DNA from: a virus
UHGV virus genome: UHGV-1810643
DNA: 13,815 nucleotides
Direction: 5' to 3' (one strand)
A program made the translations under genes and the position numbers. Shown in pieces: positions 1 through 3,744 of this stretch (the first letter of the stretch is position 1; each line of letters starts with the position of its first letter). The notes beneath the pieces were generated by a model that worked only from the letters and a program-made list of their open reading frames with translations, was not told the origin of the DNA and searched no databases.

Positions 1-130
1 AGCTGCGGTTGCGTTCCTGAATGGTTACTACGATTGGTTTGGTTGGGTCTGGAAGAATTTGCTGGATAGCTTGAATGGCGTTCTGCTGATGGATGGGGCT
101 TCTTAGTTCAAACGTTAGTTTCCTCACCAT
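1..130 (-). CDS. ninB: NinB-like protein, N-terminal 43 codons (gene continues beyond window start)
   Basis: Minus-strand translation from ATG at 130..128 gives MVRKLTFELRSPIHQQNAIQAIQQILPDPTKPIVVTIQERNRS, close to lambda NinB N-terminus as recalled; AGGAG 5 nt upstream. Confidence 0.8.
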   Translation of the reverse strand, partial: MVRKLTFELRSPIHQQNAIQAIQQILPDPTKPIVVTIQERNRS

Positions 131-272
131 TTACACTCCTGTAATCGTCAAGTGCAGCTGCAATAGTCCCTATCGGGTCATGGTCTTGCCCGATAATCTC
201 ATTTACGTTTTCATCTTCTTCCACACCGAAAAAGAATCGCAGGGCTAACATGATTTCTTCGTATGCGCTCAT
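108..272 (-). CDS. Hypothetical small acidic protein (54 aa)
   Basis: ATG at 272..270 with AAGGAG 5 nt upstream, 2 nt after the stop of the 106-aa ORF; below the ORF-track size cutoff; overlaps ninB start by 23 nt. Confidence 0.4.
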   Translation of the reverse strand: MSAYEEIMLALRFFFGVEEDENVNEIIGQDHDPIGTIAAALDDYRSVNGEETNV

Positions 273-274
273 AC

Positions 275-595
275 TCACTCCTTCACTTTGACTCCAGCAG
301 CGCGGATGTTTTCCTCATAAGCATCCATTGCATCACCGAAGCCATTGGAATAATCAACAGTAAACCCTTTGGCTAATGCTTCTCTGCTGTCGATAAACTT
401 TGGCGCGGTTATTTCAATAGCTGCTCGCGATGCCTGCCACGTTTGCCAGTGGCCTTGAACATCGTCCATCACGTATTGACCACCAATATCACCACTGCCA
501 ATTTCATGGTGATTTTCAGGGTAACGGATAAGGTCTGAAGATTCGCCTCCACGTCGCAACCAACTTTCTTCAAACTGCTTTCTTGATTCGTCCAT
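275..595 (-). CDS. Hypothetical acidic protein (106 aa), not Ren-like
   Basis: ORF track; GAGGGT-type SD upstream of ATG at 595..593; 17 nt after upstream ORF; no similarity recognised. Confidence 0.6.
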   Translation of the reverse strand: MDESRKQFEESWLRRGGESSDLIRYPENHHEIGSGDIGGQYVMDDVQGHWQTWQASRAAIEITAPKFIDSREALAKGFTVDYSNGFGDAMDAYEENIRAAGVKVKE

Positions 596-612
596 CGATA
601 CTTACCCTCAGT

Positions 613-819
613 TCAACTCACAAAACGCCACGCCATTTTTGCTACAGCGACAGGCATAACACCGATAATCACCCAGACAAATGCAGCGCCAAACAACGTA
701 TACCATGGATCTTTACCGTCATTCACAAGGCGAATGTAGCTATGCAGAACAATAAAAAACGTCAGAAGAATCCATCCAACGCCAACGCATTTGAGTGCGA
801 CGAGCATAAACTCAACCAC
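613..819 (-). CDS. Small membrane protein (68 aa from GTG, or 64 aa from ATG at 807), two hydrophobic segments
   Basis: ORF track; GGGGGAGAG SD 6 nt before GTG at 819; hydrophobic stretches ILLTFFIVL and FGAAFVWVIIGVMPVAVA. Confidence 0.5.
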   Translation of the reverse strand: MVEFMLVALKCVGVGWILLTFFIVLHSYIRLVNDGKDPWYTLFGAAFVWVIIGVMPVAVAKMAWRFVS

Positions 820-838
820 GATTTACTCTCCCCCAAAT

Positions 839-865
839 AAAAAGGCCTGCGATTACCAGCAGGCC
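839..865 (-). terminator. tR2-like rho-independent terminator (minus strand)
   Basis: Perfect 7-bp stem ggcctgc (844..850) / gcaggcc (859..865), 8-nt loop, T-run on minus strand (forward aaaaa 839..843); same context as lambda tR2 as recalled. Confidence 0.7.
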
Positions 866-895
866 TGTTACAAGCTCAGTGATGTAGATGGTCAT

Positions 896-2776
896 TTAAT
901 ACTCCGTCACGTTTTCCTGTCGCCACGCCTCGTCATATTCCGATTTCGGCATATTGGCGATGTAGCTATATGGCGATCCTGATTCAAGTTGCAGGAACTG
1001 GTGCGATTGCTCGTCAAGGAACAACGGGACACCACCTTCCCAACCTTCGCCGTTTCGTTGTTTTTCAAGCATCAAAACAGATGCCGGAGACGCCAGTACC
1101 TGTTCGTCCTTCTCTGACATCTTTTCACCACTCTGAACTCTCTGTAACGCTCTCTCGCGAGCCTTGTTACGCCAGATGATGAAAAGGTTGTCTGTCAGGT
1201 CTGTTATCGCTCCAGAGCCTTTTACGTCCATTTTCCCGGTTGGTTTTTCTTCGCTGTCTCCTTTTCGCGAGTGAGTAACGAGAATGACGTGGGAGTTTGT
1301 TTTGTTTTTGAAGTCGCAAATCGAGTCAACAAACGCCTTCTGCCCGTTATAGTCATCGTCGCCTATGCCACATTTCATCAGGCTGTCGATGATGAATAAC
1401 TGGATCCCGTATCGGCGGCGAGCGTAGTCGAATATTTCGATCAGCCTGTCGGCTTTCGCCGTTCCGGTCAGGCCAAACACCCAAAGTCTTTCGTCATAAA
1501 ATTTAAATGCAGAGTCAATTTCCAGCACTGGCGGCATCTTGCAGCACGTTGCCTGACGGGTAAGGCGCTTAAGGAGAATACCAGGCTTCAGCTCAAGTGA
1601 CGCGATGCACGTCTTCACACCCTGACGCATTGCCTCAAGTGCCATATGCCCGACAACCTCCGTTTTTCCGTGACCGTTCACACCATTGACCAGCGTCAAC
1701 TCGGCCTCACGGAACTGGAATTTATCTGCCAGAGATTCCCACGGTGGATTAAACAGATACTGCTGCTTGCCGTAGAAAGCGTTGATAGTGTCCTGGTAAA
1801 ACTCTCGCGCGCTGTAGAGTTCTTCAGGATCAAAGTAGGATGCCGTGCCGATGTACTGCCAGATTGCATCCTCGGTAACACCGTTCATCAGGCATTCGTT
1901 GATGTCTTTGTACGGCAGAGTAACAAGACGGCAACGATGTTCACCGAGTCGGCTTGCGATTTCCCTTGCGGCTTCACGACCAACATCATCAACGTCCATC
2001 GAGATGAATATTTCCTCAAACCTGTCGAGGTTGTGATACTCAAACTCAATCCACTGTTGCTTAGCGCCTTTCCCTCCACCAAACGGTACGGATAACGCCG
2101 AGATGCCGTATTGCGCATAGCTCATACAATCAATTTCGCCTTCGCAAAGTACAACCGCCCTCACGCCAGCGTCCAGAGCCTGCCATCCGAACAGACAAGG
2201 TTCGCAATCACCTTCTGCCATAATGACTTTCTTCCCGTCCGGGCGCTCAGTGCTGATTCGCTTGACCTGCAACAACTCACCATCGCGTTTGTACGGAATC
2301 ACCAGAGCATCCAGTTCCCGCTCTCCATTCCACACCTTGCCGCTGACAACCTCGTAGCGCTTTACGATTTCTGGCGATATGCCACGCGATTGCAGGTACT
2401 CAAGATGGGATTCTGTTCTGGTAACGTAGCGGGCGATTTTCTTGCGATCAGGTCTGGAGAATTTTTTCTCACGTCTGGCATCGAAATGGTGATCGTCATC
2501 CTTGATACCGAGAAATGCTTTCGCTTCCTGCATAGCCTGATGCAGGTTAATTCCACGACATGCCATCCACAAATCAAGCATGTCACCGCCGTCTCCCTCA
2601 GCGAAATCAGCCCATTTTTTCTTGCCGCTAAGGTTGACCTTAAGGCTGTTTCCCTTGTCACCGTTGATGTTACCGGCAACCCACTCATGCCCCTCTTTCT
2701 TGCCGTTTGGCAACAGGTGCGGAGCCACCCTGTCAACCTGCGCCCAAAGCAGGTCGCTAAGTTCACTTGGCGTCAT
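896..2776 (-). CDS. Bifunctional primase-helicase (626 aa): TOPRIM primase domain plus C-terminal Walker A (DnaB/T7 gp4-like) helicase
   Basis: ORF track; TOPRIM-like motif CEGEIDCMS; Walker A GVNGHGKTE; occupies the position of lambda P. Confidence 0.88.
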   Translation of the reverse strand: MTPSELSDLLWAQVDRVAPHLLPNGKKEGHEWVAGNINGDKGNSLKVNLSGKKKWADFAEGDGGDMLDLWMACRGINLHQAMQEAKAFLGIKDDDHHFDARREKKFSRPDRKKIARYVTRTESHLEYLQSRGISPEIVKRYEVVSGKVWNGERELDALVIPYKRDGELLQVKRISTERPDGKKVIMAEGDCEPCLFGWQALDAGVRAVVLCEGEIDCMSYAQYGISALSVPFGGGKGAKQQWIEFEYHNLDRFEEIFISMDVDDVGREAAREIASRLGEHRCRLVTLPYKDINECLMNGVTEDAIWQYIGTASYFDPEELYSAREFYQDTINAFYGKQQYLFNPPWESLADKFQFREAELTLVNGVNGHGKTEVVGHMALEAMRQGVKTCIASLELKPGILLKRLTRQATCCKMPPVLEIDSAFKFYDERLWVFGLTGTAKADRLIEIFDYARRRYGIQLFIIDSLMKCGIGDDDYNGQKAFVDSICDFKNKTNSHVILVTHSRKGDSEEKPTGKMDVKGSGAITDLTDNLFIIWRNKARERALQRVQSGEKMSEKDEQVLASPASVLMLEKQRNGEGWEGGVPLFLDEQSHQFLQLESGSPYSYIANMPKSEYDEAWRQENVTEY

Positions 2777-2883: not shown

Positions 2884-3744
2884 TCACCTGTCGAAAAACA
2901 CGTAGCCAGTTTTCGATACGGTGATTGCGGATGATGGTTTGGATTGTGGTTGAATGGTTTCTGGCTTTTCGTCGTTCCAGCGTTGACCGTTCAGGTAGCT
3001 CGATGGTAACAACCTGTCGAATCCGAACTGCTTACCATTCCTGCATGCGATGTCTTCTGCCAGCATCGTGGCAAACTCGCTTGCCGTCCCCCTGGTAGTT
3101 TTACGCCATTCCCTGAACTGTGTTCTGAATGCCGAAGCTGCGTTTTTCTTCCCGGCTTTCCGCATGCCTGCACACCAGAATATTTCCTCGAATGCCTTGT
3201 CGGTTTCTTCGTGACGGTCATGTGATTTTTCACACTCCGTCCGAACACTTTCGGACATAGTGTTTTTATTATTTCTTTTTTCTTTTGTAATAGTTTCTTT
3301 TGTGTGTCCCTGTTTTGGTGACAGCGCTGTCACCGTTTTGGTGACACTTTTTGTCACCAATGCAGTGACATTATCACCAGAGTAGTGACACCCTTCGATT
3401 TGCCATTCCTCGATGTTCTTGTTAGGCCCGATTTGCTGGCCTTCGCGAAGGATAACCTTCATCGCGATAAGCTCATTCTTGGCCTTGTTTACCTTCTGTC
3501 TTGGCAGCCTGGTAATTTGAGCTAACTGACTATCAGAGATGCGATCCATCTTTTTACCGTAGCCGTATGTTTTACGGCATATGGCGTGGGCAACCTTGCT
3601 CTGATTTTTCGTTAAATCTGCGCCGATAAGCTCTTCATACAGGGCATTTGCAAGACGGGTATAACCATCTTCAACTTCTGCCACACGACGCTCCACAGGC
3701 CGTTGTGAAGGCCTTAAATGTGTTACGGTTGCAAGATTACTCAT
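2884..3744 (-). CDS. Replication initiator, lambda O-like N-terminal DNA-binding domain with divergent C-terminal domain (286 aa)
   Basis: ORF track; N-terminal region [26 protein letters not shown]...[16 protein letters not shown] resembles lambda O as recalled; AAGGAG SD; iteron origin inside the gene. Confidence 0.85.
3263..3393. repeat. Replication origin: four GTGACA-containing iterons (3317..3393) next to an A/T-rich tract (3263..3300)
   Basis: GTGACA at 3318, 3341, 3365, 3385 with 20-24 bp spacing; perfect palindrome GGTGACAGCGCTGTCACC at 3317..3334; A/T-rich run on the side expected for an ori-lambda-type layout. Confidence 0.7.

What the first reader, a model, noticed from the sequence alone, without database searches (positions are those of the whole stretch)
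108..835. Compact three-gene cassette inserted between tR2 and ninB
In lambda, as I recall it, ninB follows tR2 directly. Here three tightly packed minus-strand ORFs sit between them: a 68-aa protein with two hydrophobic segments (613..819), a 106-aa net-acidic protein (275..595) and a 54-aa acidic protein (108..272), with gaps of 17 and 2 nt and the last overlapping ninB. The first ORF reuses the G-rich RBS that serves ninB in lambda, so the insertion junction is precise. I recognise none of the three proteins. Small membrane protein plus small acidic proteins in a phage early region is a pattern seen for exclusion, toxin-antitoxin-like or anti-defence modules. This phage carries rexAB but no ren, so a Rex-related role is one testable guess.
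Basis: partly seen in the sequence, partly recalled or inferred. Interest (0 to 1): 0.72.

Follow-up and report, generated by a model that had tools for sequence, protein, structure and literature searches.

The report
Three small accessory genes before ninB
The three small genes between terminator tR2 and ninB are real, but they are three independently shuffled accessory genes of already catalogued phage families of unknown function sitting in a well-known variable slot of lambda-like phages, not a new self-contained cassette.

Summary
Three tightly packed minus-strand ORFs lie between tR2 and ninB: orfA 613..819 (68 aa, two hydrophobic segments), orfB 275..595 (106 aa, net charge -8) and orfC 108..272 (54 aa, net -11). 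Homology to lambda breaks right after the shared GGGGGAGAG ribosome-binding site.

The reading as one cassette does not hold.
- Each protein belongs to an existing phage family of unknown function: phrog_1165, phrog_343 (PF26207, "phiTE_015 family") and phrog_1603.
- HK022 has the same orfA-orfB-third-gene layout.
- The identical segment occurs in E. coli KE40 and AF46 prophages.
- Of 114 scorable tR2-bearing viral contigs, 63 have ninB directly after tR2. The other 51 carry at least 18 small-gene families in 23 orders.
- orfA and orfB are not associated (OR 1.45, p 0.76), and orfC is rare.
- Breakpoints against relatives fall at gene borders.
- The genes coexist with ren, and none of the 40 listed orfB-bearing phage records carries RexA, so a Rex link is unsupported.
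- No defence-system, Pfam, PDB or fold match was found, and no promoter-like site.

Most likely these are N-dependent delayed-early accessory genes, possibly host-modulating or counter-defence. One alternative gene in the same slot is Lar-like. Function remains untested. Interest is low.

The parts
896..2776 (-). Upstream replication gene: 626-aa Toprim + DnaB-like primase/helicase. It takes the place of lambda P and ren.
   Evidence: Pfam Toprim_2 at E 3e-12, plus weaker AAA_25 and DnaB_C matches. phrog_239 DNA primase/helicase at E 4e-171. No ren or lambda P hit in the window.
812..895 (-). ninA: a 27-codon hydrophobic ORF (MTIYITELVTGLLVIAGLFIWGRVNRG) spanning tR2. It starts right after the primase stop (TAAATG). 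Its TGA stop overlaps the orfA GTG start (GTGGTTGA).
   Evidence: Sequence read. The same ORF is annotated ninA (HK620p26, 'similar to P22 NinA') in HK620. It is present in lambda, ending in ATGA on the ninB start. It is intact in 114 of 119 tR2-bearing loci.
843..866 (-). tR2 intrinsic-terminator hairpin (AGGCCTGC-loop-GCAGGCCT) followed by TTTTTATTT.
   Evidence: Terminator scan. Window 895..826 is 95.7% identical to the lambda ninA-tR2-RBS segment. HK620 annotates the homologous site as tR2.
826..834 (-). Shared Shine-Dalgarno GGGGGAGAG. It serves ninB in lambda and orfA here. Homology to lambda ends at 826.
   Evidence: In other loci the first gene of the slot, whatever its family, starts at the same offset within about 2 nt.
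613..819 (-). orfA: 68-aa, GTG-started small protein with two hydrophobic segments and pI 9.0. Member of phrog_1165.
   Evidence: phrog_1165 at E 1.7e-39 covering 1-68 of 68. 61 homologous clusters, all from Escherichia or Salmonella, with no Pfam domain except one fused entry. Invariant GKD loop and a conserved W..IG..PVA.AKMAW.F C-terminal half. pN/pS 0.53. Hydropathy. RefSeq WP_000229119.1, 'hypothetical protein'.
275..595 (-). orfB: 106-aa acidic soluble protein. Member of phrog_343 / PF26207 / PGAP 'phiTE_015 family protein'. It is mosaic internally.
278..283 (-). AAGGAG Shine-Dalgarno for orfC, encoded by the last codons (K-E) of orfB.
   Evidence: Sequence read. The same 34 nt (304..271) are 100% identical in HK022, where a different third gene follows.
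108..272 (-). orfC: 54-aa very acidic (net -11, pI 4.05) three-helix protein. Member of phrog_1603. Its last codons (..GEETNV) are the ninB 5' end read in another frame.
   Evidence: phrog_1603 at E 1.5e-32. 24 homologous clusters; named members are from E. coli, Salmonella and Cedecea. tblastn finds it in BTP1 and in 137-147 kb Klebsiella phages. AF2 pLDDT 82.9 with helices 3-15, 20-27 and 33-48. No PDB fold hit at E<4. The 'EETNV' tails are shared by unrelated genes upstream of this ninB type.
1..130 (-). 5' part of ninB (HK022-type allele), running off the window. Its ATG at 130 is preceded by AGGAG.
   Evidence: 96.8% identical to HK022 ninB and 86.9% to lambda ninB. PGAP names it 'recombination protein NinB' in the identical AF46 prophage.

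Best explanation
The segment is not one functional cassette. It is three separate small accessory genes stacked in the variable slot between ninA/tR2 and ninB of the nin region of a lambda-immunity prophage.

Shown:
- Each gene belongs to a pre-existing phage family of unknown function (phrog_1165; phrog_343 = PF26207 'phiTE_015 family'; phrog_1603).
- The three genes assort independently among lambdoid phages, with homology breakpoints at gene borders.
- Conserved stretches flank and join the genes: tR2 plus its RBS, the orfA 3' end with the orfB 5' end, the orfB 3' end carrying the next gene's AAGGAG, and the ninB 5' end.
- No promoter-like site lies in the segment.
- The reading frames are chained: the ninA stop overlaps the orfA start, and orfC overlaps ninB.

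Inferred:
- The combination arose by recombination at those conserved linker stretches.
- The genes are co-transcribed with ninB from pR only after N-mediated read-through of tR2. That makes them delayed-early lytic genes that are silent in the lysogen.
- They are dispensable accessory proteins that each act alone. orfA would be a small inner-membrane hairpin, orfB a soluble acidic alpha/beta protein and orfC an acidic three-helix bundle.
- Most probably they bind host or competitor factors early in lytic growth (host takeover or counter-defence) rather than acting as a lysogen-expressed exclusion or toxin-antitoxin system.

The genetic and evolutionary part is well supported. The functional class is only a best guess, at roughly 0.3.
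For: Family membership.

Same layout elsewhere:
- HK022 has orfA-orfB-third gene-ninB.
- 100% identical segments occur in E. coli KE40 and AF46.

Unbiased tR2-anchored sample:
- 63 of 114 loci have ninB directly after tR2.
- 51 are occupied by at least 18 families in 23 orders.
- orfA is in 26, orfB in 34, both in 18, orfA alone in 8, and orfB without orfA in 16.

No orfA-orfB association among 50 distinct occupied slots: OR 1.45, p 0.76. orfA allele types mix freely with orfB alleles.

Breakpoints at gene borders:
- HK620 homology ends at 613.
- EA2 and NRZ96052a homology ends at 269-271.
- Beyond tR2 and 20 nt at the orfB start, BTP1 shares only 307..133, the orfC segment.
- Lambda shares only 895..826 and 121..1.

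Expression signals: no promoter-like site in 1..1200, and tR2 is present.

Prevalence in 5426 complete E. coli genomes: orfA allele in 228, orfB in 51 (276 partial), orfC in 26, all three in 12.

Early-gene context of orfB relatives:
- Directly after the helicase and upstream of NinB in Yersinia phages.
- In clusters of small hypothetical genes in swi2 and KP591P1.

One alternative slot occupant is Lar-like (phrog_599, E 8e-23).
Against: - No function has been measured for any member of the three families. No literature was found.
- The promoter scan is a simple consensus scan and cannot exclude weak or non-sigma-70 promoters.
- When both are present, orfA and orfB are usually adjacent with a conserved 17-nt spacer, and the orfA 3' / orfB 5' junction is highly conserved. 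Some functional coupling of that pair is therefore not excluded.
- The IMG/VR sample is redundant and dominated by Escherichia/Salmonella prophages.
- The guilt-by-association with a Lar-like gene rests on a single locus.
Confidence: 0.75

Rival explanations
1. The three genes form one functional module. The membrane protein would be an effector or toxin and the acidic proteins its regulators: a superinfection-exclusion, abortive-infection or toxin-antitoxin-like system that moves as a moron.
For: - Tight packing, with overlapping or abutting frames.
- A small membrane protein together with small acidic proteins.
- orfA and orfB are usually adjacent with a conserved junction when both are present.
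Against: - Independent assortment and gene-border breakpoints.
- orfA is the only gene between ninA and ninB in HK620.
- orfB occurs without orfA in 16 of 34 loci. orfC is rare.
- orfA alleles shuffle against orfB alleles.
- No PADLOC match at E<=1.
- No promoter-like site, and a position behind tR2. Tight packing with ATGA-type overlaps is general to nin regions (PMC8022706).
Confidence: 0.06
2. The genes replace ren and work with or against RexAB, as a Rex-related function.
For: This window has rexA and rexB but no ren.
Against: - An E. coli EA2 prophage has P-ren-orfA-orfB-NinB, with the orfA-orfB segment 98.7% identical to the window.
- RexA occurs in only 19 phage records. None of them is among the 40 listed orfB-bearing records or the listed orfA-bearing records such as HK022, HK620, mEp235, Stx2a phages and P22-like Salmonella phages.
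- ren lies upstream of tR2 and these genes lie downstream of it.
Confidence: 0.03
3. One or more of the three is a dedicated counter-defence protein, for example an acidic inhibitor of a restriction or other immune system, expressed early in lytic growth.
For: - Early-operon position behind tR2.
- orfC is a very acidic three-helix protein and orfB is acidic.
- The orfB family is large (1166 clusters) and also sits in clusters of small hypothetical genes in the virulent-type siphoviruses swi2 and KP591P1.
- Internal mosaicism of orfB.
- The slot also hosts a Lar-like restriction-alleviation gene.
Against: - No sequence, profile or fold similarity to any characterised protein.
- pN/pS is below 1, with no sign of positive selection at the resolution available.
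- The association rests on one Lar-like locus.
- Nin-region genes with known roles act in recombination or regulation, not defence.
Confidence: 0.25
4. The ORFs are annotation noise. The segment would be non-coding spacer or regulatory DNA.
For: The ORFs are very short, and no experimental evidence of translation was found.
Against: - Full-length PHROG matches.
- orfA keeps 68 codons in 58 distinct full-length matches, down to about 50% amino-acid identity.
- pN/pS is 0.25-0.53.
- A Shine-Dalgarno sequence precedes each start.
- orfC gives a confident predicted fold.
- No Rfam family or tRNA is found in the window.
Confidence: 0.02

Closest known systems
HK022 genes HK022_58 / HK022_59 / HK022_60 (AF069308), between the replication genes and ninB
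   Same: Same order and position: tR2, then a 68-aa orfA homologue, then a 105-aa orfB homologue, then a third small gene, then ninB. The tR2-RBS, the orfA 3' / orfB 5' junction, the orfB 3' end and the ninB 5' end are near-identical.
   Different: The orfA allele is about 57% identical and orfB about 75% (the C-terminal half differs). The third gene is an unrelated 84-aa FlbD-family protein (PF06289) instead of orfC. All are annotated 'hypothetical'.
PF26207 / PGAP 'phiTE_015 family protein' / phrog_343 (the orfB family)
   Same: orfB is a full-length member. The identical protein WP_089519468.1 carries that name.
   Different: Nothing differs at family level, and the family itself has no known function. 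Some members have an N-terminal CxxC..CxC extension or other N-terminal extensions.
ninA (P22 / HK620 / lambda nin region)
   Same: It lies in the same place, immediately before orfA, and is small and hydrophobic. tblastn rows for orfA touch 'ninA' annotations.
   Different: ninA is the 27-codon ORF over tR2 (window 895..812), not orfA. HK620 annotates ninA but leaves its orfA homologue unannotated.
Lambdoid 'moron' / nin-region mosaic modules (general knowledge, not checked here: Juhala et al. 2000; Clark et al. 2001; nin-region packing also in PMC8022706)
   Same: Small non-essential genes are exchanged at conserved linker sequences, with tight ATGA-type packing.
   Different: Classical morons carry their own promoter and terminator and are expressed in the lysogen. 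These genes show no promoter-like site and sit inside the pR operon behind tR2.
Lar / Ral-type small restriction-alleviation proteins
   Same: They are small early phage or prophage proteins, and a Lar-like gene is an alternative occupant of the same slot.
   Different: None of orfA, orfB or orfC matches Lar, Ral or any annotated PHROG or Pfam family.

Membership tests
phrog_1165 (orfA) | Full-length profile match | tested here: met
   E 1.7e-39, residues 1-68 on profile positions 1-68 of 68
phrog_343 / PF26207 'phiTE_015 family' (orfB) | Profile match, and the family label on the identical or homologous proteins | tested here: met
   phrog_343 at E 3.9e-30. All 120 listed homologues carry a precomputed PF26207 hit. 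PGAP names WP_089519468.1 'phiTE_015 family protein'. PF26207 itself is absent from the local Pfam copy, so there is no direct hmmscan result.
phrog_1603 (orfC) | Full-length profile match | tested here: met
   E 1.5e-32, residues 1-53 on profile positions 1-53 of 54
Known anti-phage defence, abortive-infection or toxin-antitoxin systems (PADLOC-DB) | Match of any component to a defence-system protein model | tested here: not met
   0 families at E<=1 for all three proteins
Toxin-antitoxin-like or exclusion operon | Obligate co-occurrence of the components | tested here: not met
   orfA-orfB OR 1.45, p 0.76 among 50 distinct occupied slots. orfA occurs alone in 8 loci, orfB without orfA in 16, and orfC in 1
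Toxin-antitoxin-like or exclusion operon | Own promoter, with expression in the lysogen | tested here: inconclusive
   No sigma-70-like site in 1..1200, and the genes lie behind tR2. This is a consensus scan only, and no expression data are available.
Rex/Ren exclusion circuit | Co-occurrence with rexAB, or mutual exclusion with ren | tested here: not met
   The genes coexist with ren in EA2. RexA is in 19 phage records, none of them among the listed orfA- or orfB-bearing records.
NinA (P22 / HK620) | The approximately 27-codon ORF spanning tR2 | tested here: not met
   That ORF is window 895..812. orfA is the next gene downstream.
Type IV secretion pilin PF18895 (orfA) | Score above the Pfam gathering threshold | tested here: not met
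   14.9 bits against a cut-off of 26.6, E 0.029
Lar / restriction alleviation (PF14354, phrog_599) | Profile match | tested here: not met
   No hit for orfA, orfB or orfC. Only an unrelated slot-mate from another locus matches.
Any protein of solved structure | Sequence-profile or fold similarity | tested here: not met

The most novel reading that the evidence does not exclude
The tR2-ninB slot would be a counter-defence / host-takeover islet of lambdoid phages. Under this reading orfB and/or orfC are new inhibitors of host immune or repair factors, and orfA is a new small membrane effector. orfB belongs to a family of more than 1000 clusters that is also found in virulent phages. orfC is a very acidic three-helix protein.
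Probability: 0.2. Interest if true: 0.6.

Novelty: already known. Interest (0 to 1): 0.22.

Why it matters
As it stands this is ordinary lambdoid nin-region mosaicism. Identical proteins are already in RefSeq, the families are catalogued, and HK022 shows the same layout.

The modest value is as a pointer. The slot right after tR2 holds at least 18 families of tiny uncharacterised early genes, several with hydrophobic segments and one Lar-like. The orfB family is large and also found in phages of Yersinia, Klebsiella, Pseudomonas and Aeromonas. A functional screen of this slot could assign roles to a block of phage 'dark matter'. Nothing here shows that the three genes do anything unusual.

Tried and rejected
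- Pfam, NCBIfam and PADLOC scans of the three proteins found nothing above threshold. The only marginal hits were T4SS pilin and an MnhG-like antiporter subunit for orfA. Both are far below cut-off and typical of hydrophobic sequence.
- The orfC AF2 model was searched with Foldseek against PDB, with nothing at E<4.
- Profile searches of PDB sequences with all three alignments gave nothing meaningful.
- The orfB profile search of 1.84 billion representatives was checked for informative domain fusions. The 150 proteins listed are all small and stand-alone.
- Literature searches found nothing relevant. Terms tried: phiTE_015, PF26207, the WP accessions, PHROG ids, locus tags, and ninA/ninB/nin region/anti-defense.
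- I first read the tblastn rows as 'orfA = NinA'. I rejected this after the HK620 annotation showed that ninA is the 27-codon ORF over tR2.
- Rfam and tRNA scans of the window were empty.
- A second terminator-like hairpin inside orfA (783..758) was dismissed as chance. It has only 3 GC pairs, and the scan found 3 sites against 1.2 +/- 1.1 expected.
No heteromer prediction was possible with the tools.

Full report
**1. What is in the sequence**

The window is the early region of a lambda-immunity prophage, with the pR operon on the minus strand. cI/rexA/rexB are present, and RexA is 100% identical to lambda RexA. An O-like initiator lies at 2884..3744. A 626-aa Toprim + DnaB-like primase/helicase lies at 896..2776 and takes the place of lambda P and ren.

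Downstream of the primase stop the sequence reads as follows:
- A 27-codon ORF (895..812) spans the tR2 hairpin (866..843, followed by a T-run).
- The RBS GGGGGAGAG lies at 834..826.
- orfA is 613..819: GTG start, 68 aa.
- A 17-nt spacer follows.
- orfB is 275..595: 106 aa.
- A 2-nt gap follows.
- orfC is 108..272: 54 aa.
- ninB starts at ATG 130, overlapping orfC by 23 nt.

orfA has two strongly hydrophobic segments and pI 9.0. orfB has net charge -8. orfC has net charge -11 and pI 4.05.

**2. The junction with lambda**

Lambda and the window are 95.7% identical over 895..826, which covers ninA, tR2 and the RBS. They diverge immediately after GGGGGAGAG and align again only from 121..1 inside ninB. 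The 'precise junction reusing the lambda ninB RBS' is confirmed.

One correction is needed. In lambda, ninB is preceded by a 26-codon ORF that spans tR2 and ends in ATGA on the ninB start. HK620 annotates the same ORF as ninA ('similar to P22 NinA'). The nin-region literature lists ninA among the lambda and P22 nin genes (PMC8022706).

**3. Are these real genes?**

Yes, on four lines of evidence.
- Each gives a full-length match to a PHROG family: phrog_1165 at E 1.7e-39, phrog_343 at 3.9e-30 and phrog_1603 at 1.5e-32.
- orfA keeps 68 codons in all 58 distinct full-length, ungapped matches compared, down to about 50% amino-acid identity.
- Pooled pN/pS is 0.53 for orfA, 0.39 for orfB and 0.25 for orfC.
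- orfC is predicted as a three-helix bundle at pLDDT 82.9. orfB is predicted as a helical core with a small two-stranded sheet at pLDDT 71.7.

**4. They are already catalogued, with unknown function**

- The 841-nt segment 60..900 is 100% identical in the chromosomes of E. coli KE40 and AF46.
- PGAP calls orfB (WP_089519468.1) a 'phiTE_015 family protein' and calls orfA and orfC 'hypothetical'.
- Every listed orfB homologue carries PF26207, a family not present in the local Pfam copy.
- The orfB profile finds 1166 representative clusters in 1.84 billion proteins. The 150 listed are stand-alone proteins of 56-161 aa.
- The orfB family spans lambdoid prophages of Escherichia, Salmonella, Cronobacter, Enterobacter and Citrobacter, plus phages of Yersinia, Klebsiella, Pseudomonas and Aeromonas.
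- orfA is narrower, with 61 clusters from Escherichia and Salmonella. orfC has 24 clusters, and tblastn also finds it in BTP1 and some large Klebsiella phages.
- No Pfam, NCBIfam, PADLOC, PDB-sequence or fold match of any significance was found.
- No paper mentions these families or accessions.

**5. Is it a cassette?**

No.

HK022 has the same order: orfA homologue, orfB homologue, third gene, then ninB. Its third gene is an unrelated FlbD-family protein. Other layouts also occur:
- mEp235 and an EA2 prophage have orfA+orfB and then ninB.
- HK620 has ninA, an unannotated orfA homologue and then ninB.
- BTP1 has orfC behind four other small genes.

For an unbiased view I anchored on a 25-nt tR2 core in IMG/VR and obtained 120 loci. 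Results for the 114 that could be scored:
- 63 have ninB directly after tR2, as in lambda.
- 51 carry inserts of about 180-1275 nt made from at least 18 small-gene families in 23 different orders.
- orfA is present in 26, orfB in 34 and both in 18.
- orfA occurs alone in 8, and orfB occurs without orfA in 16.
- orfC is present in 1.

Among the 50 distinct occupied slots, orfA and orfB are not associated (OR 1.45, Fisher p 0.76). Two orfA allele types, about 95% and about 55% identical to the window, combine freely with orfB alleles.

Homology breakpoints fall at gene borders:
- HK620 homology stops at 613, the orfA stop.
- EA2 and NRZ96052a homology stops at 269-271, the end of orfB.
- Beyond tR2 and 20 nt at the orfB start, BTP1 shares only 307..133, the orfC segment.

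The conserved stretches that flank and join the genes look like the recombination joints:
- tR2 plus its RBS;
- the orfA 3' end, the spacer and the orfB 5' end;
- the orfB 3' end, which encodes ..KVKE and supplies AAGGAG for the next gene;
- the ninB 5' end.

Synonymous divergence in orfA drops towards its 3' end (pS 0.44 falling to 0.12). This fits homogenisation by recombination.

In 5426 complete E. coli genomes the window's alleles are found as follows: orfA in 228, orfB in 51 (plus 225 partial, mosaic matches), orfC in 26, and all three together in 12.

**6. The Rex/ren guess**

The EA2 prophage carries P-ren-orfA-orfB-NinB, with the orfA-orfB segment 98.7% identical to the window. The genes therefore coexist with ren.

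RexA occurs in only 19 phage records: lambda, 434, SfI, ev243, yong1 and a few others. None of these is among the 40 listed orfB-bearing records or the listed orfA-bearing records, which include HK022, HK620, mEp235, Stx2a phages and P22-like Salmonella phages. There is no evidence for a Rex link.

**7. How it most likely works**

Shown:
- No sigma-70-like promoter lies in 1..1200 on either strand, and tR2 lies immediately upstream.
- The frames are chained. The ninA stop overlaps the orfA GTG. A Shine-Dalgarno sequence precedes each start. orfC overlaps ninB.

Inferred from established lambda biology:
- The genes are transcribed from pR only after N-mediated antitermination at tR2.
- They are therefore delayed-early lytic genes and silent in the lysogen. 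This argues against a lysogen-expressed exclusion or abortive-infection role such as RexAB or SieB.
- Presence/absence polymorphism in otherwise related phages shows they are dispensable.

My best functional guess, at about 0.3, is that each acts alone on a host or competitor factor early in lytic growth, as host takeover or counter-defence. The support for that guess is:
- the early position;
- the acidity of orfB and orfC;
- orfB relatives lying right after the helicase and upstream of NinB in Yersinia phages, and in clusters of small hypothetical genes in the siphoviruses swi2 and KP591P1;
- the internal mosaicism of orfB;
- one alternative occupant of the slot being a Lar-like restriction-alleviation protein (phrog_599 at E 8e-23; PF14354 at 25.9 bits, just under its 28.6 cut-off).

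None of this is a test of function.

**8. Verdict**

The 'cassette', 'TA-like/exclusion' and 'Rex-related' readings are not supported, and anti-defence remains an open possibility.

The finding is an instance of long-known nin-region mosaicism, built from catalogued families of unknown function. I rate it 'already known', with low interest (0.22).

Noticed in passing
window 812..895 (-); lambda L004:1068-1148; 119 IMG/VR loci L090-L209: The ninA mini-ORF (24-31 codons, hydrophobic) contains the whole tR2 hairpin. It is intact in 114 of 119 tR2-bearing loci. It starts at or overlapping the stop of the upstream replication gene (TAAATG, TGATG). It always ends overlapping the start of the next gene (ATGA before ninB; GTGGYTGA before orfA). 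pN/pS is 0.31. Translation through a terminator hairpin could influence termination or couple translation across tR2; this is untested. HK022 lacks the ORF's 5' half, so it is dispensable.
   Followed up: partly
window 108..130 (-) and loci L121, L137, L206, L116: Unrelated genes lying just upstream of the HK022-type ninB all end in ..EETNV..EEANV..EETNI or ..SKTNI. Their last codons are the conserved ninB 5' end read in another frame. The right-hand module boundary therefore lies inside ninB.
   Followed up: partly
IMG/VR locus L127 (slot ORF at 545-904 of the tR2-anchored segment): One alternative occupant of the tR2-ninB slot is a Lar-like restriction-alleviation protein (phrog_599 at E 8e-23; PF14354 at 25.9 bits against a 28.6 cut-off). 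The other slot families are unknown (DUF7301, DUF4752, phrog_5903, 7185, 18758, 29435, 20539). Several are predicted membrane proteins.
   Followed up: partly
L001:3097-3351 (HK022_60) and L006:1626-1880: The third gene in HK022 and some E. coli prophages is an 84-aa protein matching the flagellar FlbD family (PF06289, 25.5 bits against a 24.7 cut-off; PGAP 'flagellar FlbD family protein'). That is an odd family to find in a phage nin region.
   Followed up: no
orfB homologues P0015, P0232; loci L026, L031, L053: Some orfB-family members carry an N-terminal extension of about 32 aa with a CxxC...CxC motif (MSKCQKCNNTG..ECDC), suggesting a zinc-ribbon fusion. The 47-kb siphovirus versions have a different N-terminal extension of about 35-55 aa.
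   Followed up: no
window 2884..3744 (-) and 896..2776 (-): The O-like initiator has a lambda-O N-terminal domain (PF04492) but a different C-terminal part (phrog_33384). It is paired with a Toprim/DnaB-like primase-helicase instead of lambda P. This is a swapped replication module, as in vB_EcoP-720R6 and mEp043.
   Followed up: no
phage record MW057783.1: A record named 'Campylobacter phage CJLB-4' matches the window's lambda-like segments at 98.2% identity, with the same coordinates and layout as phage lambda, and carries a 100% identical RexA. It is probably a lambda contaminant in that submission.
   Followed up: no
window 758..783 (-): A second terminator-like hairpin with a T-run lies inside orfA. 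It has only 3 GC pairs. The scan found 3 sites against 1.2 +/- 1.1 expected, so it is probably chance.
   Followed up: no
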